Below, piece by piece: positions 1 to 15,484 of a DNA stretch of 15,484 nucleotides. Under the pieces are notes generated by a model. It ran no database searches, was not told the DNA's origin, and saw only the letters and a list, made by a program, of their open reading frames with translations. How positions within the stretch are numbered: position 1 is the first letter of the stretch; every line of letters begins with the position of its first letter. Source of the stretch: a virus (taxonomy: Duplodnaviria; Heunggongvirae; Uroviricota; Caudoviricetes); IMG/VR virus record IMGVR_UViG_3300039384_000089; one strand, written 5' to 3'. A program made the translations under genes and the position numbers.

Positions 1-204
1 ATGGCTAATTACAATTCATTAATTCGTCTCTCTGAAGTTCAAAGGCGAACTGGTTATAGCAAAGCATGGATTTATCGTCTTATTAGTCAGGGGAGGTTCC
101 CTAAACAGGTAAAAATTGGAAGTCGGGCAATTGCTTTTGTTGAGTCTGAAATAGATGAATGGATTGAGAAGTGTATATTAGAATCTAGAGACGAGGTGGC
201 CTGA
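1..204 (+). CDS. alpA: AlpA/Vis-family prophage transcriptional regulator (small HTH, excisionase-like)
   Basis: 67-aa ORF with ATG at position 1. Translation has the AlpA-type HTH pattern (...SEVQRRTGYSKAWIYRLISQGRFPKQVKIG...). Stop overlaps the next start (TGATG). Confidence 0.8.
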   Translation: MANYNSLIRLSEVQRRTGYSKAWIYRLISQGRFPKQVKIGSRAIAFVESEIDEWIEKCILESRDEVA

Positions 205-635
205 TGGAAAAGAAAAACCGCCCATTACAGGCGGCTAATTCAGATATTCGTGTATCTGATGTTACGCCCCTTACAAAATCCCTTCAAGCACCAAAGCGCA
301 CACCGAAAAAGCATCGTGCCAGAGTCTATATGCTGCGTACTGGTATAGAGGGATGGACAGAAAATGACATTCTTCGCTACTGCCGTCTGTCTTCTGGTCG
401 TAACTATGCAACAGAGTTAGAACGCCAGCTTGGAATCACTCTGGAGCGTATCGACGAAAAGAATCCTGATGGTATCGGAACACACCTTCGCTACCGTTTC
501 TCCTGCCGTGGTGATGTTCTGAAAGTGATCACTCATATTAACCATCTTGCGAACATAAATGATCACAACGGACTTTCTCAGCAGGAAATTGCCGACATTC
601 TGAAACTCTACCCGGACGCGTTTAACGCCGCCTAA
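204..635 (+). CDS. hypothetical protein (143 aa), basic N-terminus
   Basis: ATG overlaps the alpA stop, suggesting translational coupling. Long ORF in an operon context. I recognise no domain. Confidence 0.6.
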   Translation: MEKKNRPLQAANSDIRVSDVTPLTKSLQAPKRTPKKHRARVYMLRTGIEGWTENDILRYCRLSSGRNYATELERQLGITLERIDEKNPDGIGTHLRYRFSCRGDVLKVITHINHLANINDHNGLSQQEIADILKLYPDAFNAA

Positions 636-1565: not shown

Positions 1566-2082
1566 CGTTTTATCGCGACGGGTATCAATCGCCATGCGTA
1601 CAACCGCTGGCGCGCTTCATGAAGGAGTTCGCGGAGGTTAACAAATGCTAACCGTCCAGAAGAAGATATTTTCACTGGCTGGTATGTCGCCAAAATCCAG
1701 CAATATGACAGCAAAGTCAGGCATTAATACAGCAGATACAAGCAAAGTTTGTCATTTGCTGGTGGTAGGAGCGGATGCCTTAACCATGTCAGAAATTACG
1801 GTCGATGGTGTTAGCGTTGAGAAGGTCAGCGGCTGCGCCAGAGAATTTCTGGTCGTAGATGGCTTTCTCTTCTCGCGTAGTGACTCCACAAAAACCTTCG
1901 TCCATGCGCGTGACGTTAACGAAATGAGCGCGATGTATTGTGCATCTGGTGCTTCCAATAGTGAGTTTTCGGAGTCCATAAAAAAGAGCTTGCCGTTATG
2001 CGGCAACACGGTTTATGGTTATAAGGCACCTCATAAAACGGGTGCCGGGTTTCGCAGCCCGGAAATGTACGAGGCGACACAT

Positions 2083-2104
2083 GACGCGCCGAGCGTCTTT
2101 TTTT
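2083..2104 (+). terminator. intrinsic terminator-like hairpin (GACGC-gccga-GCGTC) followed by T7
   Basis: 5-bp stem, 5-nt loop, then TTTTTTT at 2098-2104. Confidence 0.5.
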
Positions 2105-2150: not shown

Positions 2151-2242
2151 CCGCGTCGCTTGCAAAATTATGGTGGGCTGGACAGGGCAGCCGAAAGGCT
2201 GGCCGGTTTCCTTGTACGCCGGTACTGCGAACTCTGTTCAGT

Positions 2243-2276
2243 CCACCACCAGCGAGTTTCGCAGCTCCGGTGGTGG
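2243..2276 (+). promoter_or_regulatory. leader RNA hairpin (CCACCACC ... GGTGGTGG) just upstream of the RBS of the 2307 gene
   Basis: 8-bp perfect inverted repeat with an 18-nt loop that contains one copy of the GTTTCGCAGC direct repeat. No T-run follows. Confidence 0.4.
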
Positions 2277-6747: not shown

Positions 6748-6766
6748 GCTTCTTCATGTGCGTAGA

Positions 6767-6883
6767 AAAGGTGTTGGTTCAGTTGGTTCAGTTGGTTCAA
6801 TTTGTAAAGAGTATTGTTTTATAAGGATTTTATTCTTTTTATTGAACCAACACTGAACCAACAACACGGCATTTTGAACCAAC
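6767..6883. repeat. iteron cluster 1: 3 tandem GTTGGTTCA, AT-rich spacer, 3 inverted TGAACCAAC (putative origin or cis replication region)
   Basis: GTTGGTTCA at 6773, 6782 and 6791. TGAACCAAC at 6843, 6854 and 6875. Lies immediately downstream of the primase gene. Confidence 0.7.
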
Positions 6884-6934
6884 ACAACGTGACTGAATTG
6901 ATGAGCACAACATCTGGCTGGCATCAGAGAGTGC

Positions 6935-7010
6935 TTTACGAGACTTTCGTAAAATCCTGTGTACAAGGGCGTGACGTTTTTGAAAGTGAGCACTACGAAA
7001 TTTTCGTAGT
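6935..7010. promoter_or_regulatory. two related palindromic operator-like sites (TTTACGAGA-C-TTTCGTAAA and ACTACGAAA-T-TTTCGTAGT)
   Basis: Palindromes at 6935-6953 (8/9 arm match) and 6992-7010 (9/9), with centres 57 bp apart and a shared core TACGA.A...T.TCGTA. Confidence 0.35.
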
Positions 7011-7203
7011 TCAAAAAAACAGCCTCTGAGAAGTTGTTATGCCTGTTCAGCAAACCATCCGCATAGCTGATTTCGAATCAAATTACCAATGGAGCCAGAA
7101 GCAAGGGCAGAACTGGAAAGCGCCTGCCGTGAAGAGTAATGCGACACCATAAATATAGTTTTTAGAGTCCATAAAAAACCTGTCAAAACCTGACATACAG
7201 AAC

Positions 7204-7237
7204 GATGCCACCAGCTAATGAGCGGTGGCATTTTTTT
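7204..7237 (+). terminator. intrinsic terminator (ATGCCACC-loop-GGTGGCAT followed by T7)
   Basis: 8-bp stem with a 12-nt loop, directly followed by TTTTTTT. Plausibly ends transcripts coming from the primase operon or the small ORF at 7039. Confidence 0.55.
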
Positions 7238-7293
7238 GTGCTATTTGTTTCATATTTTGCAATCACAATGATGAATGTTGCGTTTTATGAAAT

Positions 7294-7317
7294 TATAATA
7301 ACTGTTGTTTTATACAG
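7294..7317 (+). promoter_or_regulatory. candidate promoter -10 (TATAAT 7294-7299) overlapped downstream by a LexA-box-like CTGT-N8-ACAG (7302-7317)
   Basis: Sequence is aCTGTtgttttatACAGtt. Both conserved LexA half-sites are present with an AT-rich centre. It lies between the -10 and the RBS (7322-7329) of the cargo operon. Confidence 0.4.
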
Positions 7318-7332
7318 TTCTAAGGGGGCGTT

Positions 7333-7506
7333 ATGGCTATTTCAGTAAAGCCAGTATTGATAAGTGAGAAACAAATGGAAGCGATAAAGAAAATTCAGGA
7401 GGAGCAGCGTAAAAAATCAGAGGTAGGAGTTGCGCCAACGATCCACGAAATTGCTCGGGGATTAATGGATAAGGCGCTGACTTACACTTTAACTGGACGT
7501 GGGTAA
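7333..7506 (+). CDS. small protein (57 aa), possible ribbon-helix-helix-type regulator
   Basis: Below the 60-aa cutoff of the ORF track. AAGGGGG RBS 4-11 nt before ATG 7333. Strand-helix-turn-helix pattern read by eye (KPVLISEKQMEAIKK...GVAPTIHEIARGLMDKAL). Stop lies 4 nt before the next start. Confidence 0.5.
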   Translation: MAISVKPVLISEKQMEAIKKIQEEQRKKSEVGVAPTIHEIARGLMDKALTYTLTGRG

Positions 7507-7510
7507 ATCA

Positions 7511-8977
7511 ATGGCTACGTGGCAACAGGGTATTAATTCTGGTGGTTTTCTGGCTGGCATCGGTACGCAAAATGAGAATGCGCCAAAGGCAAGCGACATT
7601 AACGCAACGCTTGGTCTGATCCGCGAAAACAATGAACTGGCTCGATCAGGTGCAAATAACGTTGCTCTGACAGGTCTTCGTGGTCTGGCTGGAGTTGCTG
7701 ATATTTATAAGCAGCAGCAACAGCAGGAGCGTAAAGCGGCATTCCAGAAAGGTTATGCAGATGCTTATGCGTCCGGCGACAGGGAGAAGATGCGTAATCT
7801 TATTACAGCATTCCCAGAAGAGTTTGAGGAAGTCCGTAAAGGCATGGGGTATGTCGATGACGCCCAGCGGGATGATTTTGGCAATCTGGCGCTTAAAGCA
7901 CAGGTAGCTTCGTCGCTTGGTCCGGGCGCATTTGGCAGGTTCATGATGGATAACGAAAAGGAGATGCGTCGTTTAGGTATCCCTCCAGAAACTATTGCTG
8001 AAATGCAGGTTAATGACCCGCAGGGCTTCCAGCACTTCGCAGGTAATCTGGCACTGTTTTCTCTCGGCCATGAGAAGTACTTCGATATCAAAGATCAAAT
8101 GGAAGGTCGGGATATTGAACGTGGCAAGTTGGCAGAGACAATCCGCAGCAATCAGGCCAGCGAAGCACTTCAGGCGAGAGGGCAGGATATTAGCCGAGCA
8201 AATGCGTTAACGTCAGCATATGCACCAACAGCAGCAATGCAGAATTACAATCAGTACGCTCAAATGTTAAAGGCGGATCCAGAGGGGGCGGCGGCATTTG
8301 CGGCAGCGGCTGGAATTAATACAAACGCCAAAAAATTAATGAGTGTTAGAGAAAACGATGATGGCACTGTCACAAAATACTACACAGACGGAAGTGAAGA
8401 GCAGGGAAAACTAAACCAGCCAATATCTGGAGATGGGTTTCGTCCAATAGCTTTGCCAACAGCCCAAAAGATCATGGAAAAGTCGCCAGAAGGGGCTAAA
8501 AAAGCTGCTGGATTTGCATACAGGGTTAGGGATGCTCTTGATTCAATAGATACACTGAAAGACCAGCTTAGCCCACAGCGAGTGGCGATCATTAATAATG
8601 CTTTGGGTAATGGGACGCTGGCTAACTTAACGCTCAGCCCAACAGAGCAGCAATACGTTGTTAATGCTAATGACGCAATAATGGCAATACTCCGTCAGGA
8701 AACAGGGGCATCTATCCTACCAGCTGAAATGTCCAAATATTATCAAATGTATTTCCCTCAGCCTGGTGATTCCACAAAAACCATTGATACCAAGCGCCGG
8801 AAGATGGAAAACCAGTTCAATTCGCTGAAAGCTGCTTCTGGTCGAGCTTATGATGCTTTGCGGGTTATTTCAGCAGTTGACAGAGGAACTTCTTCTTCGT
8901 CGCAGACATTGCCGCAATCTGAGCAGGTATCACAGCCAGCAGCCAGCAGTAATTTTTCTTCACTATGGGGTGATTAA
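7511..8977 (+). CDS. cargo protein B (488 aa), Ala/Gln-rich, largely helical, unknown function
   Basis: Long ORF; ATG 7511 preferred over the GTG at 7499 used by the ORF track. Stop overlaps the next start (TAATG). No catalytic motif recognised. Confidence 0.8.
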   Translation: MATWQQGINSGGFLAGIGTQNENAPKASDINATLGLIRENNELARSGANNVALTGLRGLAGVADIYKQQQQQERKAAFQKGYADAYASGDREKMRNLITAFPEEFEEVRKGMGYVDDAQRDDFGNLALKAQVASSLGPGAFGRFMMDNEKEMRRLGIPPETIAEMQVNDPQGFQHFAGNLALFSLGHEKYFDIKDQMEGRDIERGKLAETIRSNQASEALQARGQDISRANALTSAYAPTAAMQNYNQYAQMLKADPEGAAAFAAAAGINTNAKKLMSVRENDDGTVTKYYTDGSEEQGKLNQPISGDGFRPIALPTAQKIMEKSPEGAKKAAGFAYRVRDALDSIDTLKDQLSPQRVAIINNALGNGTLANLTLSPTEQQYVVNANDAIMAILRQETGASILPAEMSKYYQMYFPQPGDSTKTIDTKRRKMENQFNSLKAASGRAYDALRVISAVDRGTSSSSQTLPQSEQVSQPAASSNFSSLWGD

Positions 8978-11082
8978 TGGCTAAAGCATGGAAAGATGTT
9001 ATCGCTTCTCCACAGTATCAGGCGTTAGCACCAGAACAAAAAGCGCAGGCTCAGGAGCAATACTTCAATGAAGTCGTGGCCCCGCAAGCCGGAGAAAGTG
9101 TAGAGCAGGCTAAGCAGGCTTTTTATGCTGCCTATCCACTACCATCAACGAATGAAATAGACCGATCCCAATCAGCAACTCAAAATATTCAACATACATC
9201 ATCTGATAATTCTCTTGCGTCAGGGTATGCAAAGTTAGCTACTCAGCAAAGAGAGGGGCTTGAGCGTTCAGCAGAACAGGGAGCCAGTCTTGGGGCTGCG
9301 ATGCGCGATGCTATAACAGGCGAAAGCCGAATGACTCCAGAGATGGAGAGACTGCAAAATGTCGCCTCTGCCCCAGAATTGAACTCACTAAGCATGGATG
9401 CCCTAAAGGCTGGATGGTCTCAACTTTTCGGCTCTGACGCGTCTCAGGAAAAGATTCTTCAGGGGATGGGGGCGACATTAAGGCAGGATGAGAAGGGGAA
9501 TACTATCGTTTCTCTGCCATCAGGTGATTATGCCCTGAACAAGCCGGGTTTATCACCGCAAGACCTGACTTCGTTTCTTGCTAATGCGTTGGCGTTTACA
9601 CCAGCGGGCAGGGCTGGAACGGTGCTTGGTGCCATAGGAAAATCAGCAGCTACAGATTTAGCACTACAGGGAGCCACCAGCCTTGCTGGTGGAGAAGATA
9701 TTGATCCGTTACAAACGGTAATTTCTGCTGGCATTGGTGGTATTGGTAAGGGGCTGGAAAATACAGCGAGTGCGGTTTCGAGGGCTGTTCGTGGTGATAT
9801 GTCGCCTGAAGCAAAGGCTGCTGTCGACTTTGCATCGGAAAGAAATCTGCCGTTAATGACCAGTGACATGCTGAAAGATAAAACCTTTATGCAGAGTCAG
9901 GCTCAGACATTAGGCGAAAGAGTTCCTTTTTTTGGAACCGGTAAGAATCGGCTGAATCAACAACAAGCACGAGAAAATTTAGTCAGAACATTTAGCGATG
10001 GTCTGGGTGGCATTTCTGATAAACAGCTTTATGAATCTGCGACTAAAGGGCAACAAAAATTCATTGAGGCAGCAGGAAAGCGATATAACCGCATAATTGA
10101 CGCTATGGGGGATACCCCTGTCGATCTCTCAAACACGGTAAAAGCTATCGACAATCAGATTGCCGTGTTAAGCCGCCCGGGCAAATCTCAGGATAGAGCC
10201 GCGGTAAAAGTCTTGCAGCAATTTAAAGACGATATCACCAGCGGACCAAATGACCTGCGTCTGGCGAGGGAAAACAGAACCGATCTTCGAAAGCGATTTA
10301 TGGCGTCATCTGACACTGTTGATAAAGATACGCTCCAGAAAGCCAGCGATATTATCTACAAGGCATATACGGCGGATATGAAAAAAGCCGTAGCCAAAAA
10401 TCTTGGAGCAGACGAAGCCATTAATATGGCAAGGGTTGATCGCTCATGGTCTAAATTCAATGACATGATGGGAAGAACGCGCGTTCAAAAGGCAATAGCC
10501 AGCGGCAAGGCCACGCCTGAGGATGTAACAAAACTCGTTTTTAGCCAAAGCCCATCAGAACGTTCTCAGCTTTACAGGCTTCTGGATGACAATGGTAGGC
10601 AAAACGCACGAGCAGCCATAGTTCAGAATGCTGTAGATAAGGCGACTGATCCGTCTGGAAATATCAGTGTTGAGAAGTTTATTAATGCGTTACACCGGAA
10701 CAGGAAGCAATCAGCAACTTTCTTTAAAGGCGTACATGGAAAGGAACTGGACGGCGTTATTAAATACCTCAACGATACAAGACACGCGGCAAAAGCGAAC
10801 GTTCAAAACTTAAATGGTCAGCAGCTTTATGGATTGTTAGTTGGTGGTGGCATCATAAACGCAGCAGTATTAGCGGGGATGCTAAAAACGGCTGCGTTTG
10901 TTGTTCCTGCTGCTGGTGCCGTAGGCGGAGCAGCGAAGGCATACGAAAGCCCTGTTATACGAAATGCCTTGTTACGTCTGGCAAATACGCCAAAAGGTAG
11001 CACAGCATATGACAGAGCGATCAGTACGGTCACACAATCGCTCACCAGAGTCGCACAGGCATCACAAAAAGAAGTTCAATAA
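8977..11082 (+). CDS. cargo protein C (701 aa), unknown function, with a C-terminal Gly/Ala-rich hydrophobic hairpin
   Basis: Long ORF coupled to B. Hydrophobic segment LYGLLVGGGIINAAVLAGMLKTAAFVVPAAGAVGGAA at about nt 10815-10935. A second Gly-rich stretch (ISAGIGGIGKG) mid-protein. No canonical Walker A. Confidence 0.85.
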   Translation: MAKAWKDVIASPQYQALAPEQKAQAQEQYFNEVVAPQAGESVEQAKQAFYAAYPLPSTNEIDRSQSATQNIQHTSSDNSLASGYAKLATQQREGLERSAEQGASLGAAMRDAITGESRMTPEMERLQNVASAPELNSLSMDALKAGWSQLFGSDASQEKILQGMGATLRQDEKGNTIVSLPSGDYALNKPGLSPQDLTSFLANALAFTPAGRAGTVLGAIGKSAATDLALQGATSLAGGEDIDPLQTVISAGIGGIGKGLENTASAVSRAVRGDMSPEAKAAVDFASERNLPLMTSDMLKDKTFMQSQAQTLGERVPFFGTGKNRLNQQQARENLVRTFSDGLGGISDKQLYESATKGQQKFIEAAGKRYNRIIDAMGDTPVDLSNTVKAIDNQIAVLSRPGKSQDRAAVKVLQQFKDDITSGPNDLRLARENRTDLRKRFMASSDTVDKDTLQKASDIIYKAYTADMKKAVAKNLGADEAINMARVDRSWSKFNDMMGRTRVQKAIASGKATPEDVTKLVFSQSPSERSQLYRLLDDNGRQNARAAIVQNAVDKATDPSGNISVEKFINALHRNRKQSATFFKGVHGKELDGVIKYLNDTRHAAKANVQNLNGQQLYGLLVGGGIINAAVLAGMLKTAAFVVPAAGAVGGAAKAYESPVIRNALLRLANTPKGSTAYDRAISTVTQSLTRVAQASQKEVQ

Positions 11083-11100
11083 CTGGTTAGCCACGGATGG

Positions 11101-11451
11101 CTAATTTTTGTTCTTTGCTCTCATCCACAGGTAAAGAAGGGCAAGAACAAGACAAAAAACAGAGAATAGATAACCTACCTCATATGATGCGCCAAAAAAA
11201 TTAGCTATTGATACGGGCAAAAAAGCTGAAGCGATCAAAATTGAAAGGCAAAAAATAAGACCAGTAATATAGTTTATTAAATTCTTAAATGAGAAACGTT
11301 TTGCTTGATTTATGGTCTTAGCGAACGATCGCTTAACGACGGATAAAAGCAAATAGATGGCGACAGTTGCTAATGCCCCTTTCCACCAGTCTGGATATAG
11401 TTTTGCGACAATCAGACCAAGGAAAACCATGATGACAGCCTGAGCATTCAC
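11101..11451 (-). CDS. small polytopic membrane protein (about 116 aa, about 4 predicted TM helices), convergent with protein C
   Basis: GGGAGGG sits 5 nt before the GTG whose codon is 11449-11451 on the minus strand. The ORF track extends to 11688 but upstream ATGs lack an RBS. Four hydrophobic stretches of roughly 15-19 residues. Ends 19 bp from the stop of C. Confidence 0.6.
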   Translation of the reverse strand: MNAQAVIMVFLGLIVAKLYPDWWKGALATVAIYLLLSVVKRSFAKTINQAKRFSFKNLINYITGLIFCLSILIASAFLPVSIANFFGASYEVGYLFSVFCLVLALLYLWMRAKNKN

Positions 11452-11577
11452 ACCAACCCTCCCTTTAGCGTTGTTTAGAATGGCAATCATCATATATCCA
11501 AGACATGGCATTTGGTACATAGCTTGGGTCGGGATTTCAAATCCGCCCCCGTTGATGGGGTCGTTACAGTACGCGCA

Positions 11578-11945
11578 TATCCGCTTTATGTGAAACAGGA
11601 AGATTTTTCTGATATCACTGCCACAGCAAAACACCAATTTCGAGACAAGTACGCGCGCGAGGGGTATCAGTTGCAAAAAGTTTTGCAACTGCGTCCGACT
11701 AGTACGCGCACGATGGCGGGGGATACCATAAAAGTGTTCTCTACATGAGACAGAGTGGTGGTGATGTGTTGATTATCGGCGCATATGCGCACAGGACGCG
11801 CTATGACAATGTTTTATGCGGGTACACCAATCACATGTATCTGGTGTGATAAATCGCGTTACATGACCTCTCATGTTGTGCTGGTGGTTATCACGACTTT
11901 CTGAATCTGGCCTTTGCCTGATATTTTGCGACAAGTACGCGCGCG
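11578..11945. repeat. cluster of direct AGTACGCGC repeats, two extended to GACAAGTACGCGCGCG with palindromic TA(CG)nTA cores
   Basis: Copies at 11578, 11648, 11701 and 11934, all on the same strand. Nearby palindromes TTGCAAAA-AG-TTTTGCAA (11671-11688) and GCGCATATGCGC (11780-11791). About 450 bp without a convincing ORF. Confidence 0.5.
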
Positions 11946-11973
11946 TAGCATCGACAGCATACACATTGGATAT

Positions 11974-12195
11974 TCATTTTGTGACCAATGCGATAAGTAG
12001 CGGGATAAGAATTGATAAAATCAACAGGCCGATGATCCACTTTTGATTTTCACTGGCCTTATCTCTATTTTCATCAATCTTATCAATAATTCGACGCTCC
12101 AATCCGTGCATATCACCGCGAATGGCAATCATCTCATTGCGAACATCAGGGAAGTGGTTGGCTTGATGTTCAATGTGTGGCGTTCTGCCTTTCAT
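11974..12195 (-). CDS. small C-terminally anchored membrane protein (73 aa)
   Basis: GAGGA sits 4 nt before the ATG at 12195 (minus strand). Charged, helical N-terminal half, then one hydrophobic helix (WIIGLLILSILIPLLIALV) at the C-terminus. Confidence 0.55.
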   Translation of the reverse strand: MKGRTPHIEHQANHFPDVRNEMIAIRGDMHGLERRIIDKIDENRDKASENQKWIIGLLILSILIPLLIALVTK

Positions 12196-12274
12196 ATCTG
12201 ATCCTCACCTATCGTCACTACCTGCTGGTGTATAAAGGTATTGGCCCAAGCAACTTTCCAATGGGCACTCATGT

Positions 12275-12730
12275 TTATACGCTGACCTTACAATCAATCA
12301 CTGCTTTTAGCTTTTCAGCATTGCTTCCCTGACGCTTCCACGCGCTGTAAATATCTTTATCCCACGCTTTACCAGCTTTTGTTTGATAGCCTGCTTCATT
12401 GATCCGTTCAGCTATCACACGCCCATTATCAAATCCCTGTTGGATGGTATCGGCAATGATCTTTATAACTGCCGTTTCGTTATATGGTTTTGGTGGGATG
12501 TTCGGCTTTCCGGCAATAAGCGACGCAGCGGCTTTTTCCATGCGCTCCACCAGCCCAAGCATTCGTGAATCAATAGACTTTTCCGGCTGCCCCAGCTTCA
12601 TGCGAATCGCATCAACAAGCCAGGAGGTTTTATCTCCTCCAGAAGCGAGAACAGACCGATTAAACTCATCCTGCAATTCAGATGGGATGCGGAACGCGAC
12701 CAGATTAGATTTGCTCATTGCAAAGACCAT
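12275..12730 (-). CDS. ribbon-helix-helix (Arc/CopG-like) DNA-binding protein with a C-terminal extension (about 147-151 aa)
   Basis: N-terminus NLVAFRIPSELQDEFNRSVLASGGDKTSWLVDAIRMKL fits the RHH beta-alpha-alpha pattern. Start is ambiguous between the ATGs at 12730 and 12718. Palindromic operators lie in its promoter. Confidence 0.65.
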   Translation of the reverse strand: MVFAMSKSNLVAFRIPSELQDEFNRSVLASGGDKTSWLVDAIRMKLGQPEKSIDSRMLGLVERMEKAAASLIAGKPNIPPKPYNETAVIKIIADTIQQGFDNGRVIAERINEAGYQTKAGKAWDKDIYSAWKRQGSNAEKLKAVIDCKVSV

Positions 12731-12747
12731 ATCAGTGAGTAATATCC

Positions 12748-12778
12748 ATACAGTATACCACTGTATAACACTGTTATA
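12748..12778. promoter_or_regulatory. overlapping palindromic operator-like sites (ATACAGT-ATACC-ACTGTAT and TATAACA-C-TGTTATA) upstream of the RHH gene
   Basis: Perfect 7-bp inverted repeat arms, located 18-48 bp upstream of the minus-strand RHH start. Confidence 0.4.
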
Positions 12779-12832
12779 CGCTCAAATATCAGCCAGAAAA
12801 TAACGGACCAATCACAAATCTATCGCTGTGTT

Positions 12833-12960
12833 GTTGGTTCAGAGCTGGGCTGTGTTGGTTCAAAATGAGTTGATGTTGGTTCAATATTTCAGAAAAAACA
12901 CAATAAAAACAACAATCTTTACAAATTGAACCAACTGAACCAACTGAACCAACACCTTTT
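12833..12960. repeat. iteron cluster 2: 3 spaced GTTGGTTCA, AT-rich spacer, 3 tandem TGAACCAAC; inverted copy of cluster 1
   Basis: GTTGGTTCA at 12833, 12854 and 12875. TGAACCAAC at 12927, 12936 and 12945. Positions 12917-12960 are the exact reverse complement of 6767-6810 (44 bp). Confidence 0.7.
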
Positions 12961-12989
12961 TGCTTATCTATATAATCTGAGAGGCAGAA

Positions 12990-13271
12990 ATGATAAGGGA
13001 CAGGAAAGCTGAAGAGCTGGAGTCAAAAGGGCTATACCGGAGAGCTGCCGCACGATGGATGGAAGTCATGCTGTTATGCACCGAGGACGATGATCGGGAA
13101 TGGATAAAGCGCCGCCGTGAAACGTGTCTGGAGAACGTGAAGCGCCCGCCCGTGAAGGTTGAGGAATTTGGCGACCTGCATAAAGCTGTTACCGAAACGC
13201 AACACCGCATGGGGATAGCGCAACCGAACGGTAACGCCTTCCGGTTAAATGGCGGCAAGAGGCAAAGGTAG
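12990..13271 (+). CDS. PerC-family-like transcriptional regulator (93 aa)
   Basis: GAGG 5 nt before the ATG, and TATAAT at 12971-12976. Motif ...LESKGLYRRAAARWMEVM...REWIKRRRETC... matches my recollection of the PerC/Pch family. Confidence 0.6.
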   Translation: MIRDRKAEELESKGLYRRAAARWMEVMLLCTEDDDREWIKRRRETCLENVKRPPVKVEEFGDLHKAVTETQHRMGIAQPNGNAFRLNGGKRQR

Positions 13272-13319
13272 ACCACCAGAGGGAAATCATCCTCTGGCTG
13301 GCGGTTTCTGGTATTTCGG

Positions 13320-13335
13320 GACAAGTACGCGCGCG
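13320..13335. repeat. fifth copy of GACAAGTACGCGCGCG (14-bp palindromic core TACGCGCGCGCGTA)
   Basis: Same orientation and flanking pattern (ctgRtatttYgSgacaagtacgcgcgcg...tagca) as the copy at 11930. Confidence 0.5.
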
Positions 13336-13573
13336 CGTAGCACCCAATCGGTGAGGAAATAGCGTAGCGGCGACCTGAATGGTCAAAATCACAACGCAGC
13401 TATCCCCGTAAGCAGCGCTTAACGGAATAGCAGTAACCTGAATCCAGTGGGGAGGGGGTAGTCAAATCTCTACAGCCCTGACTATCCGGGACTGCCCGCC
13501 CCATCGTTTTTTTATACCCGCGAAAAATGAAATTTAATCCGGGCGTGTTTCATTCTTCCAGAGGGTATGACGT

Positions 13574-13759
13574 ATGACACCACGCGAAATAGCCTTATTG
13601 ACCATCGCCAAACTTGAGCACGGAGGCCACCAGCTTACACAGGCAGATCAACGGGAGATAGAACGATCAGTTAATGCCGATATAGCCCGGCGCGACAGGT
13701 TCCGCGAAATGATGCGAGCACCTGCCTACCAGTGGAAGAAGCCAGCGCCGCGCAGGTAG
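13574..13759 (+). CDS. hypothetical small protein (61 aa)
   Basis: AGAGGG 9 nt before the ATG. Basic C-terminus. No recognised domain. Confidence 0.4.
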   Translation: MTPREIALLTIAKLEHGGHQLTQADQREIERSVNADIARRDRFREMMRAPAYQWKKPAPRR

Positions 13760-13879
13760 ATATGGGATTATTCCACATGTAACTTATGCGTATTAAGCAA
13801 ATTTCCTTTATTCACCTTTACAGAATTGTGAGTACGTCAGTATCGTTATCCTTCCGATTCGCATTTATTCAGGATTTGC

Positions 13880-14422
13880 ATGTACCAGCTAAAGATAACC
13901 ATCCGAGACAGCAAACCACCTATATGGCGGCGTGTGCTGGTTCCAGAGCAAATCCCCTTTAGTAAACTTCATGCCGTGATCCAGTTAGCTTTTGGCTGGA
14001 ATGACGAACACCTGTATATGTTCGAGAAAGGGCGTAAAGGTGATCCAGGTAGCGAGTATCGCGTATGGGGTGAGGATGAAAGCATGGGTAACGCGGCAAT
14101 CACGCCACTATGGGCGGCGCTCCAGAATGAGGGTGGCAAGCTGGTTTACACGTATGACTTTGGCGACTGGTGGGATTGCGTCATTGTGCTGGAGAAGCAA
14201 ACACACGATACGAGTAATCAGCCCATTAGCTGCCTGCGTGGGAAAGGCACCACCCCGGCGGAAAACTCAGGCGGCTTGCATGGTTACAATGAATTGCTAT
14301 TACAGGCCAGAGAGTCTGATAATCCTGAGCAGGCCGAGATCCACAATTTCCTGATGCTGGATATTGAACGCCGGGTTTACGACCTGAGCCGCATCAACGA
14401 CAGATTGCAGGCTATTAACTGA
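13880..14422 (+). CDS. plasmid pRiA4b ORF-3-like family protein (180 aa)
   Basis: N-terminal signature YQLKITIRDSKPPIWRRVLVPEQIPFSKLHAVIQLAFGW..EHLYMF, as I recall it for this family. Confidence 0.7.
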   Translation: MYQLKITIRDSKPPIWRRVLVPEQIPFSKLHAVIQLAFGWNDEHLYMFEKGRKGDPGSEYRVWGEDESMGNAAITPLWAALQNEGGKLVYTYDFGDWWDCVIVLEKQTHDTSNQPISCLRGKGTTPAENSGGLHGYNELLLQARESDNPEQAEIHNFLMLDIERRVYDLSRINDRLQAIN

Positions 14423-14774
14423 CCCGCATGTATTCACCTGATATTGCGTTGTCAGCGCCGCCAGTATCGCGCATAACAGCGCACTGACCGGGTAAACCGT
14501 AGCGCACGACCGTTGCGTTAGTATCACCGCCGCGCCGTATCTGGCGCGATTCATACACTGTCACCCGCTCAAGCAGTCCACCAGCAACCATGCTTTCCAG
14601 TGTGCGCCGGGTTGATTCGAGCTGGTGACGCTTATCGAACGACACCATGCCATGAAGCAGGTAGGCCACACCCGACACATCGAACGGCGGCGCACCAATC
14701 TCACCAGTCACCCATTCGAGGTTATCCGGTTCAAAGTAGCTAAGTATCTCTTTTTTGCGGCTGGTCATTCTCAT
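14415..14774 (-). CDS. hypothetical protein (119 aa)
   Basis: ORF convergent with the preceding gene (8-nt overlap). Weak RBS. No recognised domain. Confidence 0.45.
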   Translation of the reverse strand: MRMTSRKKEILSYFEPDNLEWVTGEIGAPPFDVSGVAYLLHGMVSFDKRHQLESTRRTLESMVAGGLLERVTVYESRQIRRGGDTNATVVRYGLPGQCAVMRDTGGADNAISGEYMRVS

Positions 14775-15145: not shown

Positions 15146-15484
15146 GTGAAACTCAATGCCCGTCAAATAGACACTGCCAAGCCAAAAGAGAAGGCTTACA
15201 AGTTGGCTGATGGTGGTGGTCTGTACCTCCTGGTAAAACCTGGTGGAGGAGAATATTGGCGTCTCAAGTATCGTGTAGCTGGTAAAGAGAAGCTGTTAGC
15301 ACTAGGTGTGTATCCTGAGGTCACCTTAGCTGATGCTCCTGCAAAACTTGAAGAAGCTAAAAGAGGTATCTCTGGGGGAATCGATCTGATGGAAGTGAAG
15401 CGAGAGGAAAAGATTGCCCGGGAAACGCAGTTAAACAACACCTTCAAAGATATTGCCCTTGAGTGGCACAGTAACAAATTATAA
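15146..15484 (+). CDS. int: tyrosine integrase, P4/CP4-57-type N-terminal arm-binding domain; only 112 codons before an in-frame TAA at the window edge
   Basis: GTG start with GGAG upstream. Translation MKLNARQIDTAKPKEKAYKLADGGGLYLLVKPGGGEYWRLKYR... is the typical N-terminus of this integrase family. Stop is at 15482-15484, where full-length members run to about 400 aa. Confidence 0.75.
   Translation: MKLNARQIDTAKPKEKAYKLADGGGLYLLVKPGGGEYWRLKYRVAGKEKLLALGVYPEVTLADAPAKLEEAKRGISGGIDLMEVKREEKIARETQLNNTFKDIALEWHSNKL

What the first reader, a model, noticed from the sequence alone, without database searches (positions are those of the whole stretch)
7294..11451. Cargo operon of unknown function with a LexA-like box, a C-terminal hydrophobic hairpin protein and a convergent small membrane protein
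Four features line up here. A CTGT-N8-ACAG LexA-like box (7302-7317) sits between a TATAAT and the RBS. Three translationally coupled genes follow: a 57-aa RHH-like protein, the 488-aa protein B and the 701-aa protein C. Protein C ends in a roughly 37-residue Gly/Ala-rich hydrophobic hairpin with a central Lys. A gene for a roughly 116-aa, roughly 4-TM protein then converges on the operon 19 bp after the stop of C. This layout resembles pore-forming bacteriocin loci, where the immunity gene lies convergent and downstream of an SOS-regulated toxin. It would equally fit a defence module with a membrane effector carried by a satellite. A third, weaker reading is that B and C are phage internal or ejection-type proteins, based only on their Ala/Gln-rich helical composition and sizes. 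I cannot place B or C in any family from sequence alone.
Basis: partly seen in the sequence, partly recalled or inferred. Interest (0 to 1): 0.8.

Follow-up and report, generated by a model that had tools for sequence, protein, structure and literature searches.

The report
Phage satellite carrying its own DNA-ejection proteins
The "cargo operon" encodes homologues of the phage P22 DNA-ejection proteins gp20 and gp16, not a toxin, and it sits behind an SOS-type operator on a small phage-satellite island, a combination I found in no published description.

Summary
The favoured readings (bacteriocin plus immunity, or a membrane-effector defence module) are not supported.

- **Protein B** is a full-length P22 gp20 homologue (Pfam PF16928, 4e-84).
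- **Protein C** is a full-length P22 gp16 homologue (phrog_770, 2.4e-163). Its hydrophobic hairpin is the family's conserved C-terminal membrane segment. The sites of P22 SieA-escape mutations align with it.
- **The 4-TM gene** sits where sieA sits in true P22-like prophages, but it is not a SieA homologue. Only about a third of related cassettes carry it.

Window 7501-11458 is a phage-derived cassette. It lies downstream of the primase gene of a roughly 17-kb integrative satellite (int, AlpA, primase, no capsid genes).

A conserved leader precedes the cassette: terminator, TATAAT, CTGT-N8-ACAG box and a small ORF. In relatives the same leader precedes 14-7-20-16 cassettes, T7-type internal virion proteins, tape-measure proteins or baseplate hubs. 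The box arms are kept while the spacer varies.

Best reading, which is an inference: the satellite re-equips hijacked virions with its own SOS-induced DNA-delivery proteins. The main rival is assembly interference.

The parts
7204..7236 (+). Strong intrinsic terminator upstream of the operon. It insulates the operon from primase transcription.
   Evidence: Hairpin of -23.5 kcal/mol, z = -7.7, followed by U7. Conserved in E. coli satellite copies.
7294..7299 (+). -10 hexamer TATAAT of the operon promoter. The -35 element is weak.
   Evidence: Read from the sequence. TATAAT or TAnAAT is conserved directly before the box in all 32 distinct leaders that carry an exact box. The consensus scan did not call this promoter.
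7300..7319 (+). LexA-type operator AACTGTTGTTTTATACAGTT; the core CTGT-N8-ACAG is at 7302-7317.
   Evidence: Among relatives, 53 of 54 P22-type cassettes have an exact box 29-32 nt before the small ORF's ATG. Four different spacers occur (TGTTTTAT, ATCGTTAT, GTCTATAT, ATAAAATA) with identical arms.
7333..7506 (+). Small conserved leader ORF of 57 aa, possibly a ribbon-helix-helix regulator. It marks the cargo slot of this satellite family.
   Evidence: Narrow family found in E. coli, Serratia, Klebsiella and metagenomes. In relatives it is always the first gene before a virion-protein cargo. The model has an extended N-terminus and two helices; the RHH fold is not proven.
7501..11458 (.). Phage-derived cassette: gene 20, gene 16 and the convergent membrane-protein gene.
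   Evidence: DNA homology to phage N7 starts at 7501, 10 nt before B's ATG. Homology to a Yersinia P22-like prophage and to an Edwardsiella satellite ends at 11458.
7511..8977 (+). Protein B, a homologue of P22 ejection protein gp20 (periplasmic conduit), 488 aa.
   Evidence: PF16928 Inj_translocase 4e-84; phrog_917 7e-145, covering the full profile. Matches in 161 phage records. dN/dS of 0.10-0.28 between satellite copies.
8977..11082 (+). Protein C, a homologue of P22 ejection protein gp16 (inner-membrane component), 701 aa.
   Evidence: phrog_770 2.4e-163, full length. PGAP names its E. coli copy 'P22-gp16 family'. 65% identical to phage N7 gp16 and 28% to P22-like SE1 gp16. dN/dS of 0.14-0.23.
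10825..10935 (+). C-terminal hydrophobic hairpin of C (residues 617-653, with K638 at the turn), followed by the conserved motif YES-x-RN-LLRLANT-G-AY-RA.
   Evidence: Hydropathy. It aligns with the equivalent segment in all gp16 homologues. P22 gp16 G532 aligns with the G before the hairpin and P546 with K638; these are the SieA-escape positions in PMC10883804. C-terminal transmembrane helices are reported as conserved in gp16-like proteins (PMC8954989).
11085..11106 (.). Hairpin between the convergent genes. It looks like a terminator on the + strand.
   Evidence: -10.3 kcal/mol, followed by a U-rich tail on the + strand.
11101..11451 (-). Convergent 116-aa membrane protein (three to four predicted transmembrane helices) in the position that sieA occupies in P22. 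It is a candidate superinfection-exclusion or moron gene.
   Evidence: GTG start with the Shine-Dalgarno AAGGGAGGG. Four helices in the model, pLDDT 60. Homologues lie directly after gene 16 in true P22-like prophages of Yersinia and E. coli. No similarity to SieA.

Best explanation
Window 7294-11451 is a separate, probably SOS-controlled transcription unit on a roughly 17-kb PICI/P4-like phage satellite. The satellite has int, AlpA, an AntA-type antirepressor, an Ash-family gene with a C4-type RNA and a Toprim/DUF927 primase, and it has no capsid or terminase genes. The unit sits in the accessory slot just downstream of the primase gene.

Its cargo is a cassette taken from a P22-like podophage. 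It holds gene 20 (periplasmic conduit protein), gene 16 (inner-membrane ejection protein, anchored by the C-terminal hydrophobic hairpin) and the small membrane-protein gene that occupies the sieA position.

Proposed mechanism:
1. LexA represses the promoter in the resting cell (inferred).
2. DNA damage, which also induces a resident P22-like helper prophage, releases the operon (inferred).
3. The satellite's gp20 and gp16 are loaded into helper-built procapsids in place of, or alongside, the helper's own (inferred).
4. On the next cell they are ejected and build the trans-envelope channel that delivers the satellite DNA (inferred from the known role of the families).

The likely benefit is entry that does not depend on the helper's highly variable ejection proteins. 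In particular it could give escape from SieA-type entry exclusion, which acts on exactly gp16 and gp20.

The 4-TM protein is probably an exchangeable, prophage-style membrane moron, possibly an entry-exclusion protein. It is not an immunity partner of C.

Shown here: protein identities, cassette boundaries, satellite context, purifying selection, conservation of the operator arms, and the family-wide pattern of cargo. Inferred: LexA binding, incorporation into virions, and the benefit.
For: **Identity.** B matches PF16928 at 4e-84 and phrog_917 over its full length. C matches phrog_770 over its full length. PGAP names both genes' E. coli copies ejection proteins.

**Hairpin.** It is homologous across the gp16 family and coincides with the P22 SieA-escape positions G532 and P546 (PMC10883804). 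C-terminal transmembrane helices are a family trait (PMC8954989).

**Layout.** Gene 16 followed by a convergent sieA gene 22 bp downstream is the P22-type layout. The window's 4-TM gene sits in that slot in true prophages.

**Satellite context.** The element lies at tRNA-Thr with int, AlpA and a primase, and has no head genes. The region downstream of pri is a published PICI accessory region (PMC11364771).

**Not a relic.** ORFs are intact and dN/dS is 0.10-0.28 between satellite copies, including E. coli versus Edwardsiella for C. 314 E. coli genomes hold at least 80% of 7200-11700, and 218 hold the leader/gene-20 junction.

**Same gene pool as functional phage genes.**
- The first 226 nt of B are 93% identical to phage N7.
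- The first 50 nt of B, with the 10 nt before its ATG, are 95-98% identical to the start of the ejection-protein gene at other E. coli loci, one of them confirmed as a P22-like prophage.
- C's first 54 aa are 94% identical to the gp16 of phage Bas106.

**Complete delivery modules behind the same leader and small ORF in relatives.**
- gp14-gp7-gp20-gp16.
- Serratia gp20 plus an SLT-gp16 fusion.
- T7-gp14-like internal virion protein plus three large virion proteins.
- SLT/tape-measure-like protein plus Dit, full-length tape-measure proteins, and baseplate hubs.

**Operator.** An exact CTGT-N8-ACAG box is present in 53 of 54 P22-type cassettes, with four different spacers, always just after TATAAT.

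**Independent unit.** A strong terminator lies upstream.

**Precedent.** The SaPI packaging operon I is LexA-controlled (Ubeda 2007, pmid 17581119, cited in PMC6739421).
Against: - No experiment or proteomic data show that the satellite's proteins enter virions.
- The window's version lacks gp7 and gp14, so it must rely on the helper for those.
- No terminase small subunit, pac site or capsid-redirecting gene was found in the window, so the helper relationship is not demonstrated.
- At most 8 of 24 sampled leader-bearing E. coli genomes showed a second locus that could be a P22-like prophage, against roughly 15% background. That is a weak enrichment and the second loci were not verified.
- The -35 element is weak, and LexA binding is only a consensus match.
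- In Klebsiella-type and T7-type relatives the right arm of the box is lost. Edwardsiella has CTAT in place of CTGT.
- The slot is a published defence hotspot, which fits the interference rival equally well.
- Some copies are pseudogenes: gp16 is truncated in strain EC36.
Confidence: 0.55

Rival explanations
1. Assembly interference or defence. The satellite-encoded gp20 and gp16, and the tape-measure, hub and internal-virion proteins in relatives, are expressed during a phage's lytic cycle. They co-assemble into that phage's virions as mismatched or dominant-negative subunits. The released particles cannot deliver DNA, which protects the neighbouring population, much as the Tai systems found in the same PICI slot do.
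For: - The cassette lies in the accessory region downstream of pri, where PICIs carry the Tai tail-assembly inhibitors (PMC11364771).
- The window's version holds only two of the four genes of the fuller 14-7-20-16 cassette, gp20 and gp16. That could create a mismatch with the helper's gp7.
- Most satellite-bearing genomes show no P22-like prophage.
Against: - The proteins are full length, including the membrane hairpin and the conserved C-terminal motif, and are under purifying selection along their whole length.
- Many relatives carry complete sets: 14-7-20-16, or four T7-type internal proteins. A poison subunit would not need a complete set.
- The N-termini are near-identical to those of functional phage genes.
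- Poisoned particles would also kill the satellite's own transfer.
- No PADLOC hit.
Confidence: 0.22
2. Passenger relic. A piece of a P22-like late operon was captured together with the useful sieA-slot membrane gene. B and C have no function for the satellite. Only the membrane protein matters, for example for entry exclusion.
For: - The cassette boundaries match a single phage-derived block.
- Some copies carry a truncated or frameshifted gp16.
- The 4-TM gene occupies a slot known for exclusion genes.
Against: - dN/dS of 0.10-0.28 and intact ORFs across E. coli, Serratia, Edwardsiella and metagenomic satellites.
- The 4-TM gene is present in only 15 of 42 cassettes, whereas gp20 and gp16 persist.
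- The operon has its own conserved promoter, operator and leader ORF placed exactly at gene 20 or gene 14.
- Analogous delivery modules from other phage types sit in the same slot.
Confidence: 0.1
3. SOS-induced pore-forming bacteriocin (C) with a convergent immunity protein (the 4-TM gene).
For: Only the superficial layout supports it: a LexA-like box, a hydrophobic hairpin near the C-terminus and a convergent small membrane protein.
Against: - C is a full-length gp16 ejection protein, and B is gp20.
- No colicin or pore-domain match.
- No lysis gene.
- Satellites whose C is 93-100% identical lack the 4-TM gene.
- The hairpin is shared by phage gp16 proteins.
Confidence: 0.01
4. Regulation only: the palindrome is the operator of the small leader protein (autoregulation), or of a helper-encoded factor, and not of LexA. 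Expression would then be tied to satellite or helper signals, not to SOS.
For: - A small, possibly RHH-type protein is encoded immediately downstream.
- Relatives with other cargo keep the left half-site CTGTAT but lose the right arm.
- The Edwardsiella element has a different small ORF and an imperfect box.
Against: - The sequence fits the gamma-proteobacterial LexA consensus (CTGT-N8-ACAG with an AT-rich spacer) in four independent spacer variants. Serratia has TACTGT...ACAGT.
- The position overlapping the transcription start is typical of LexA-repressed promoters (general knowledge).
- There is a precedent in SaPI operon I.
Confidence: 0.2

Closest known systems
Ejection (E) proteins gp20 and gp16 of phage P22 and its relatives (Sf6, HK620, CUS-3, N7, APSE)
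   Same: - Full-length homology for both proteins.
- The same gene order, with an overlapping stop and start.
- The same C-terminal hydrophobic segment and conserved motif in gp16.
- The same mosaic pattern: conserved N-termini and variable remainders.
   Different: - Encoded on a satellite without any head, portal or tail genes, not in a phage late operon.
- Preceded by its own terminator, promoter, LexA-type box and small ORF, not by genes 14 and 7.
- gp7 and gp14 are absent in this copy.
P22 sieA superinfection-exclusion locus (gene 16 followed by convergent sieA; Leavitt et al. 2024, PMC10883804)
   Same: - A small multi-pass inner-membrane protein gene converges about 20 bp after gene 16.
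- The window's family sits in that slot in true P22-like prophages.
- SieA acts on gp16 and gp20, the two proteins carried here.
   Different: - No sequence or profile similarity to SieA.
- The SieA motif FxRYPxEAxxFNK is absent.
- Shorter (116 aa against 164 aa), without the soluble loop.
- No exclusion activity has been tested.
PICI accessory region downstream of pri, carrying Tai tail-assembly inhibitors (He et al. 2024, PMC11364771)
   Same: - The same kind of element (int, AlpA, pri).
- The same position of the variable cargo, directly after the primase gene.
- The cargo concerns virion function.
   Different: - The cargo here is bona fide structural or ejection proteins, not Tai proteins.
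- No defence-database hit.
- The slot has a conserved leader ORF and an SOS-type box, which the passages of that paper I read do not mention.
SaPI operon I, the LexA-controlled packaging/morphogenesis operon of staphylococcal satellites (Ubeda et al. 2007, pmid 17581119)
   Same: A satellite operon encoding virion-related functions, placed under LexA so that it fires together with SOS induction of the helper.
   Different: - A Gram-positive system.
- Its operon encodes terminase small subunit and capsid-size and interference proteins, not ejection proteins.
- LexA control here is only predicted.
Capsid-forming PICIs (cf-PICIs) and P4
   Same: Satellites that supply some of their own virion parts and take the rest from a helper (my own knowledge of the field).
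   Different: cf-PICIs supply heads and P4 supplies capsid-size factors. In this family the supplied part is the genome-delivery device: ejection proteins, tape-measure protein or hub.

Membership tests
P22 gp20 / Inj_translocase (PF16928, phrog_917) | Significant match to the family profile over the conserved N-terminal domain and over the full length | tested here: met
   PF16928 4e-84, residues 16-232 against profile positions 1-217 of 218. phrog_917 7e-145, positions 1-504 of 509.
P22 gp20 / Inj_translocase (PF16928, phrog_917) | Gene lies immediately upstream of gene 16, overlapping it | tested here: met
   B ends at 8977 and C starts at 8977. Phages L, N7 and SE1 have the same arrangement.
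P22 gp20 / Inj_translocase (PF16928, phrog_917) | Packaged in the virion and ejected to form the periplasmic tube | not testable with these tools
   Needs virion proteomics or cryo-ET.
P22 gp16 family (phrog_770; PF26808 in precomputed annotations) | Full-length profile match | tested here: met
   phrog_770 2.4e-163, positions 3-666 of 668. PGAP name. PF26808 is recorded on the Edwardsiella and Yersinia homologues. The local Pfam copy gave no hit.
P22 gp16 family (phrog_770; PF26808 in precomputed annotations) | C-terminal membrane-active segment plus the conserved C-terminal motif | tested here: met
   Hydrophobic arms at 617-635 and 639-653, then YES..RN.LLRLANT..G..AY.RA, aligned in 8 homologues.
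Pore-forming colicin/bacteriocin with immunity | Colicin-type pore domain or any bacteriocin domain | tested here: not met
   No such Pfam, NCBIfam or PHROG hit.
Pore-forming colicin/bacteriocin with immunity | Obligate linkage of the toxin with its immunity gene | tested here: not met
   The 4-TM gene is present in 15 of 42 cassettes. Strain CP53 has a 93%-identical C with a secreted protein in that position.
SieA superinfection exclusion (types A-C) | Sequence similarity and the conserved motif FxRYPxEAxxFNK | tested here: not met
   BLASTP E = 0.28; hhalign probability 0.7%. The motif is absent from the alignment. The motif is taken from PMC10883804.
SieA superinfection exclusion (types A-C) | Located between genes 16 and 9 of a P22-like prophage, convergent with gene 16 | tested here: met
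   Homologues occupy that slot in Yersinia and E. coli prophages. The window copy is in a satellite.
SieA superinfection exclusion (types A-C) | Blocks DNA injection by P22-like phages | not testable with these tools
   Needs plaque and K+ efflux assays.
LexA (SOS) regulon promoter | CTGT-N8-ACAG palindrome with an AT-rich spacer overlapping the core promoter | tested here: met
   7302-7317, 2 nt after TATAAT. Arms conserved with four different spacers among relatives.
LexA (SOS) regulon promoter | LexA binding and RecA-dependent induction | not testable with these tools
   Needs EMSA and a reporter in lexA(Ind-).
Ribbon-helix-helix regulator (small ORF) | RHH fold or profile match | tested here: inconclusive
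   No Pfam, NCBIfam or PDB sequence hit. The model is compatible (strand-like N-terminus and two helices, pLDDT 74), but the best Foldseek hit, ParD RHH, has E = 8.5.
PICI-type phage satellite | int + AlpA + primase/replication module, about 10-20 kb, no capsid, tail or lysis genes, tRNA-adjacent | tested here: met
   AlpA, AntA, Ash and Toprim/DUF927 primase in the window. int at tRNA-Thr and about 17 kb in CP53.
PICI-type phage satellite | Helper-dependent induction, packaging (Rpp, terminase small subunit, or cos/pac site) and transfer | tested here: inconclusive
   No Rpp or terminase small subunit detected in the window. A TerS-like gene occurs in relatives L006 and L100. Mobilisation cannot be tested here.
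Known anti-phage defence systems (PADLOC-DB) | Profile match of any protein in 7333-14774 | tested here: not met
   No hits for 8 proteins.

The most novel reading that the evidence does not exclude
A widespread family of enterobacterial PICI-like satellites keeps one conserved slot downstream of the primase gene: terminator, promoter with a LexA box, then a small leader ORF. The satellites load this slot with the genome-delivery device of whatever helper type they exploit. The devices seen are P22-type ejection proteins, T7-type internal virion proteins, siphovirus tape-measure proteins with Dit, and baseplate hubs. By re-equipping hijacked virions with their own delivery proteins, the satellites would control entry into the next cell. 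For the P22-type version, this would let them bypass SieA-type exclusion in the lysogens that hold future helpers. The satellite's own sieA-slot gene would shut the door behind it.
Probability: 0.3. Interest if true: 0.85.

Novelty: new variant of a known kind. Interest (0 to 1): 0.62.

Why it matters
Satellites are known to steal or remodel capsids, packaging specificity and tails. I found no description of satellites that bring their own DNA-ejection machinery.

If the satellite's gp20 and gp16 are loaded into helper particles, that would add a new layer to satellite-helper conflict: control of genome entry. It would also give a selective explanation for the extreme mosaicism of P22-type ejection proteins and their interplay with SieA-like exclusion. 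And it would identify a conserved, probably SOS-controlled cargo slot, found in an estimated 500 of 5426 complete E. coli genomes, that can be mined systematically.

If the rival holds instead (poisoning of virions), this would be a new class of assembly-interference defence built from structural-protein copies.

Either way, B, C and the hairpin are explained, and the bacteriocin idea can be dropped.

Tried and rejected
- **Bacteriocin/immunity.** Rejected: B and C are gp20 and gp16, there is no colicin domain, and the 4-TM gene is dispensable.
- **Known defence system.** PADLOC gave nothing for 8 proteins.
- **4-TM protein as a SieA homologue.** No similarity by BLASTP or hhalign, and no tblastn hit in 50,697 phage records.
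- **Solved structures.** No PDB sequence relatives for B, C or the small ORF.
- **RHH fold of the small ORF.** Foldseek was inconclusive.
- **Model of the 4-TM protein.** Low confidence (pLDDT 60), so it was not used for fold searches.
- **Rpp-type packaging redirection.** The 151-aa and 143-aa ORFs have no PDB relatives, and RppC is a solved structure.
- **Species-representative genomes scanned with a gp16 alignment.** All 19 loci were ordinary P22-like prophages (17 with flanking virion genes, 2 fragmentary).
- **Co-occurrence with P22-like prophages.** Only a crude 60-row sample was possible. At most 8 of 24 leader-bearing genomes had a second locus, and those loci were not verified.
- **Literature.** Eight of the nine full-text searches looked for satellites carrying ejection, internal-virion or injection proteins and found none. 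The library is incomplete, so a prior description cannot be excluded.
- **Significance of the box from the window alone.** Not significant. Invariance among four close E. coli copies is not significant either, since only about 9% of leader columns vary.

Full report
**1. What is in the sequence**

- The only CTGT-N8-ACAG in the window is at 7302-7317 (20-mer AACTGTTGTTTTATACAGTT). It lies 2 nt after a perfect TATAAT (7294-7299) and before the Shine-Dalgarno AAGGGGG and the ATG at 7333.
- By itself the box is not significant. The chance expectation is 0.15 per window, and 29 of 200 shuffles had a match.
- The -35 element is weak, and the consensus promoter scan did not call this promoter.
- A strong terminator lies just upstream at 7204-7236 (-23.5 kcal/mol, z = -7.7, U7 tail). 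The operon is therefore its own transcription unit.
- The ORFs are the 57-aa small ORF (7333-7506), B (ATG 7511 to 8977, 488 aa) and C (8977-11082, 701 aa). They are tightly coupled: a 4-nt gap, then a 1-nt overlap.
- C has exactly one hydrophobic region, residues 617-653, made of two arms around K638. B has none.
- A 116-aa protein is encoded convergently at 11101-11451. It has a GTG start behind AAGGGAGGG and three to four predicted transmembrane helices. Eighteen nucleotides separate it from C's stop.

**2. Identity of B and C**

- B matches Pfam PF16928 ('DNA/protein translocase of phage P22 injectosome', gp20) at 4e-84, and phrog_917 over the whole profile.
- C matches phrog_770 ('DNA transfer protein', gp16) over the whole profile at 2.4e-163.
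- RefSeq annotation of near-identical E. coli loci reads 'phage DNA ejection protein' and 'P22-gp16 family phage DNA ejection protein'.
- C is 65% identical to the gp16 of coliphage N7, 33% to that of phage L and 28% to that of a P22-like Salmonella phage.
- B has relatives in 161 phage records.
- Neither protein has a solved-structure relative or a defence-database hit.

**3. The hairpin**

In an alignment of eight gp16 homologues, the hydrophobic hairpin and the following motif YES-x-RN-LLRLANT-x-G-x-AY-x-RA are the best-conserved C-terminal features. A review of ejection proteins states that C-terminal transmembrane helices are found in all gp16-like proteins and that these proteins insert in the inner membrane (PMC8954989).

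The two P22 gp16 residues whose mutation lets P22 escape SieA exclusion are G532 and P546 (PMC10883804). G532 aligns with the conserved Gly just before the hairpin. P546 aligns with the hairpin's central Lys. The hairpin is therefore the membrane-proximal business end of an ejection protein, not a colicin-like pore domain.

**4. The convergent membrane gene**

In a P22-like phage, sieA (164 aa, inner membrane) converges on gene 16 with a 22-bp gap. The window has the same layout.

The window's protein belongs to a narrow family found in E. coli, Edwardsiella, Yersinia and Salmonella. Members of that family sit directly after gene 16 in undoubted P22-like prophages:
- in Yersinia enterocolitica, with portal, scaffold, coat, gp4, gp10, gp7, gp20 and gp16 upstream and the tailspike downstream;
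- in E. coli AH21G053.

It is nevertheless not a SieA homologue. BLASTP gives E = 0.28, hhalign gives 0.7% probability, and the SieA motif is absent.

It is also not tied to C. Satellites whose C is 93-100% identical carry a secreted 131-aa protein in that position, sharing only the 5' leader, or carry nothing detectable there. Among 42 P22-type cassettes with enough downstream sequence, 15 have the 4-TM gene, 6 the secreted protein, 3 a Serratia-specific gene and 18 none of these. This argues strongly against a toxin-immunity pair.

**5. Boundaries and context**

- DNA similarity to P22-like phages begins abruptly at 7501, 10 nt before B's ATG. It is 93% over the first 226 nt against phage N7.
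- Similarity to a Yersinia prophage and an Edwardsiella element ends at 11458.
- Window 7501-11458 is therefore a phage-derived block: gene 20, gene 16 and the sieA-slot gene.
- Everything around it is satellite: AlpA, a PM1773-family protein, an AntA antirepressor, an Ash-family ORF with C4/IsrK-type RNAs, and a 920-aa Zn-ribbon/Toprim/DUF927 primase. Downstream lie PerC and a pRiA4b-ORF3-like gene. There are no head, terminase, tail or lysis genes.
- In E. coli CP53 the element is about 17 kb, with its integrase next to tRNA-Thr beside proA.
- No gp7, gp14 or gp26 homologue is present in this version.
- The position directly after the primase gene is a published accessory/immune region of PICIs (PMC11364771).

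**6. It is maintained, not decaying**

- 314 of 5426 complete E. coli genomes hold at least 80% of 7200-11700, and 218 hold the leader/gene-20 junction.
- A 60-row sample suggests about 500 genomes carry the leader with some cargo.
- Between satellite copies, dN/dS is 0.10-0.28 for B and 0.14-0.23 for C. For the E. coli and Edwardsiella satellite copies of C it is 0.20.
- Some copies are broken: gp16 is truncated in EC36 and frameshifted in a prophage.

**7. The family-wide pattern**

This is the key result. The small ORF defines a narrow protein family. I collected 95 further loci with a homologue from metagenomes and IMG/VR, plus Serratia, Klebsiella and E. coli genomes.

Where the upstream sequence is held, nearly all of these loci show a primase of the window's type upstream, and the genome-derived loci also carry int and AlpA. 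In every locus the small ORF is the first gene of the cargo. The cargo classes are as follows.

| Cargo after the small ORF | Evidence | Loci |
|---|---|---|
| gp20-gp16 | as in the window | 25 |
| gp14-gp7-gp20-gp16, some with SLT-gp16 fusions | PF11039; PF25688 at 1.9e-72 | 29 |
| T7-gp14-like internal virion protein plus three large virion proteins | phrog_418, 1044, 3003, 684 | 14 |
| SLT/tape-measure-like protein plus a Dit-like protein | phrog_2276 | 16 |
| Full-length tape-measure proteins of 1046-1209 aa, an SLT protein, or baseplate hubs | phrog_1107, E = 0; phrog_7694; phrog_196 | within the remaining 15 unclassified loci |
| A 223-aa unknown protein | no confident family match | 5 |

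Almost all identifiable cargo is the part of a virion that crosses the envelope and forms or opens the DNA channel.

**8. The box in the light of relatives**

- All 25 gp20-gp16 loci and 28 of 29 14-7-20-16 loci have an exact CTGT-N8-ACAG 29-32 nt before the small ORF's ATG, immediately after TATAAT. Only 1 of 45 loci with other identifiable cargo does.
- Four spacer versions occur with identical arms: TGTTTTAT, ATCGTTAT, GTCTATAT (Serratia, TACTGT...ACAGTT) and ATAAAATA. The flanks have diverged.
- Klebsiella-type and T7-type leaders keep TATAAT-nn-CTGTAT but have replaced the right arm with the Shine-Dalgarno sequence.
- Edwardsiella has CTAT-N8-ACAG before a different small ORF.

Constraint on the arms but not on the spacer is what a LexA operator predicts. 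From memory, the sequence is close to bona fide E. coli SOS boxes such as those of uvrB and dinD. Binding itself is untested. An alternative is that the small protein, or another factor, uses this palindrome.

A LexA-controlled virion-function operon has a precedent in SaPI operon I (pmid 17581119, seen in the reference list of PMC6739421).

**9. How it most likely works**

Steps that are shown:
- B and C are gp20 and gp16.
- They sit on a satellite, in a conserved slot downstream of the primase gene.
- They are under purifying selection.
- They share near-identical N-termini with phage genes.
- Relatives carry whole delivery modules.

Steps that are inferred:
- SOS induction derepresses the operon at the same time as a resident P22-like helper is induced.
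- The satellite's gp20 and gp16 are incorporated into helper procapsids.
- After adsorption they are ejected and build the conduit that delivers satellite DNA.

The attraction of this model is that gp16 and gp20 are the two ejection proteins on which SieA-type exclusion acts, while gp7 is not implicated (PMC10883804). They are also the most variable. A satellite that brings its own pair could enter lysogens that exclude ordinary P22-like particles, and those lysogens are the cells that hold future helpers.

Confidence is about 0.97 in the identities and about 0.5 in the transfer-promoting role.

**10. Rivals**

- *Interference.* The copies poison the invading phage's virions, in the manner of the Tai systems in the same slot. 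This is favoured by the location and by the incomplete set in this window. It is disfavoured by full-length conservation, by the complete sets in relatives, and by the cost to the satellite's own transfer.
- *Passenger relic.* Disfavoured by dN/dS, by the dedicated leader, and by the persistence of gp20 and gp16 where the 4-TM gene is lost.
- *Bacteriocin.* Contradicted.
- *Operator not LexA.* Open.

**11. Weak points**

- No helper has been demonstrated.
- The window has no terminase small subunit, Rpp or pac site. TerS-like genes occur in two relatives.
- Co-residence with P22-like prophages is at best weakly enriched, and the second loci were not verified.
- The 19 loci recovered from species-representative genomes were all ordinary prophages.
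- The literature library is incomplete. I found no description of satellites encoding ejection proteins, but I cannot prove that none exists.

**12. Verdict**

The leading interpretation is rejected and the third reading is confirmed.

The proteins are ordinary members of known families. Their placement is not ordinary: a conserved, probably SOS-controlled slot of a widespread satellite family that collects genome-delivery modules of several phage types. As far as I can tell this has not been described, and it is directly testable.

Noticed in passing
window 2026-2103 and 2166-2253 (+): Rfam matches above the gathering score to the IsrK Hfq-binding sRNA (69 bits) and the C4 antisense RNA (81 bits). 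Both lie inside the annotated 'ash family' ORF (1645-2712). This suggests a P1/P4-style RNA-based immunity or antirepressor switch in the satellite.
   Followed up: no
window 11568, 11648, 11701, 11934 and 13324 (+): The 9-mer AGTACGCGC occurs five times against an expectation of 0.09; no shuffle of 200 reached five. Four copies cluster in the gene-free stretch upstream of the 4-TM gene, as 20-nt repeats GACAAGTACGCGCGCG. A perfect 11-nt palindrome, CAGTTGCAAAA/TTTTGCAACTG, lies at 11668-11691. These could be regulator sites, iterons or a packaging site.
   Followed up: partly
window 6748-7332: About 585 bp lie between the primase stop and the small ORF with no convincing gene. The stretch ends in the strong terminator at 7204-7236. 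In strain EC36 two extra genes are inserted here.
   Followed up: no
L005 18188-18583 (-), L011 11997-12434 (-): In some satellites the 4-TM gene is replaced by a 131-aa protein with a signal peptide (phrog_2651, function unknown). It shares the same 5' leader and Shine-Dalgarno sequence, so the leftward slot after gene 16 is itself an exchange point for envelope-directed morons.
   Followed up: partly
L010 7271-7942; also L051-L054: In some satellites the same leader, box and small ORF are followed by a single 223-aa protein of unknown function. It has only weak metallopeptidase-like matches, and PerC follows. It is the only cargo class that is not recognisably a virion protein.
   Followed up: partly
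L131 7498-10638, L083 7494-11123, L104 7177-8190, L130 7153-8247, L036 9506-16933: Relatives of the satellite carry, behind the same small ORF, full-length tape-measure proteins, baseplate-hub proteins or a set of T7-type internal virion proteins. L036 also has a Rap1a-like gene at the end of the set.
   Followed up: partly
window 11974-12195 (-) and 12275-12730 (-): A 73-aa protein with one predicted C-terminal transmembrane helix (phrog_6324; weak holin-family hit) and a 151-aa protein of unknown function lie upstream of the 4-TM gene on the same strand. Neither has a PDB or defence-database relative.
   Followed up: partly
window 204-635 (+): Residues 101-141 of the 143-aa 'PM1773 family' protein give weak, non-significant PDB matches (E = 0.6-0.9) to tail-spike ('Tail spike protein', 'Tail protein') chains. 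This is probably chance. It is noted only because the suspected helper is P22-like.
   Followed up: no
window 15146-15484 (+): The window ends in an integrase-like fragment (phrog_3423/phrog_1). At the corresponding place in EC36 a truncated Arm-DNA-binding integrase is annotated next to the vat toxin island, which suggests tandem or decayed elements at this site.
   Followed up: no
L006 7008-7508 (-), L100 9033-9641 (+): Two relatives carry a small protein resembling a terminase small subunit near the delivery-protein cargo (Terminase_2 at 1e-9; phrog_57 at 1.3e-9). This hints at how some family members redirect packaging. No counterpart was found in the window.
   Followed up: no
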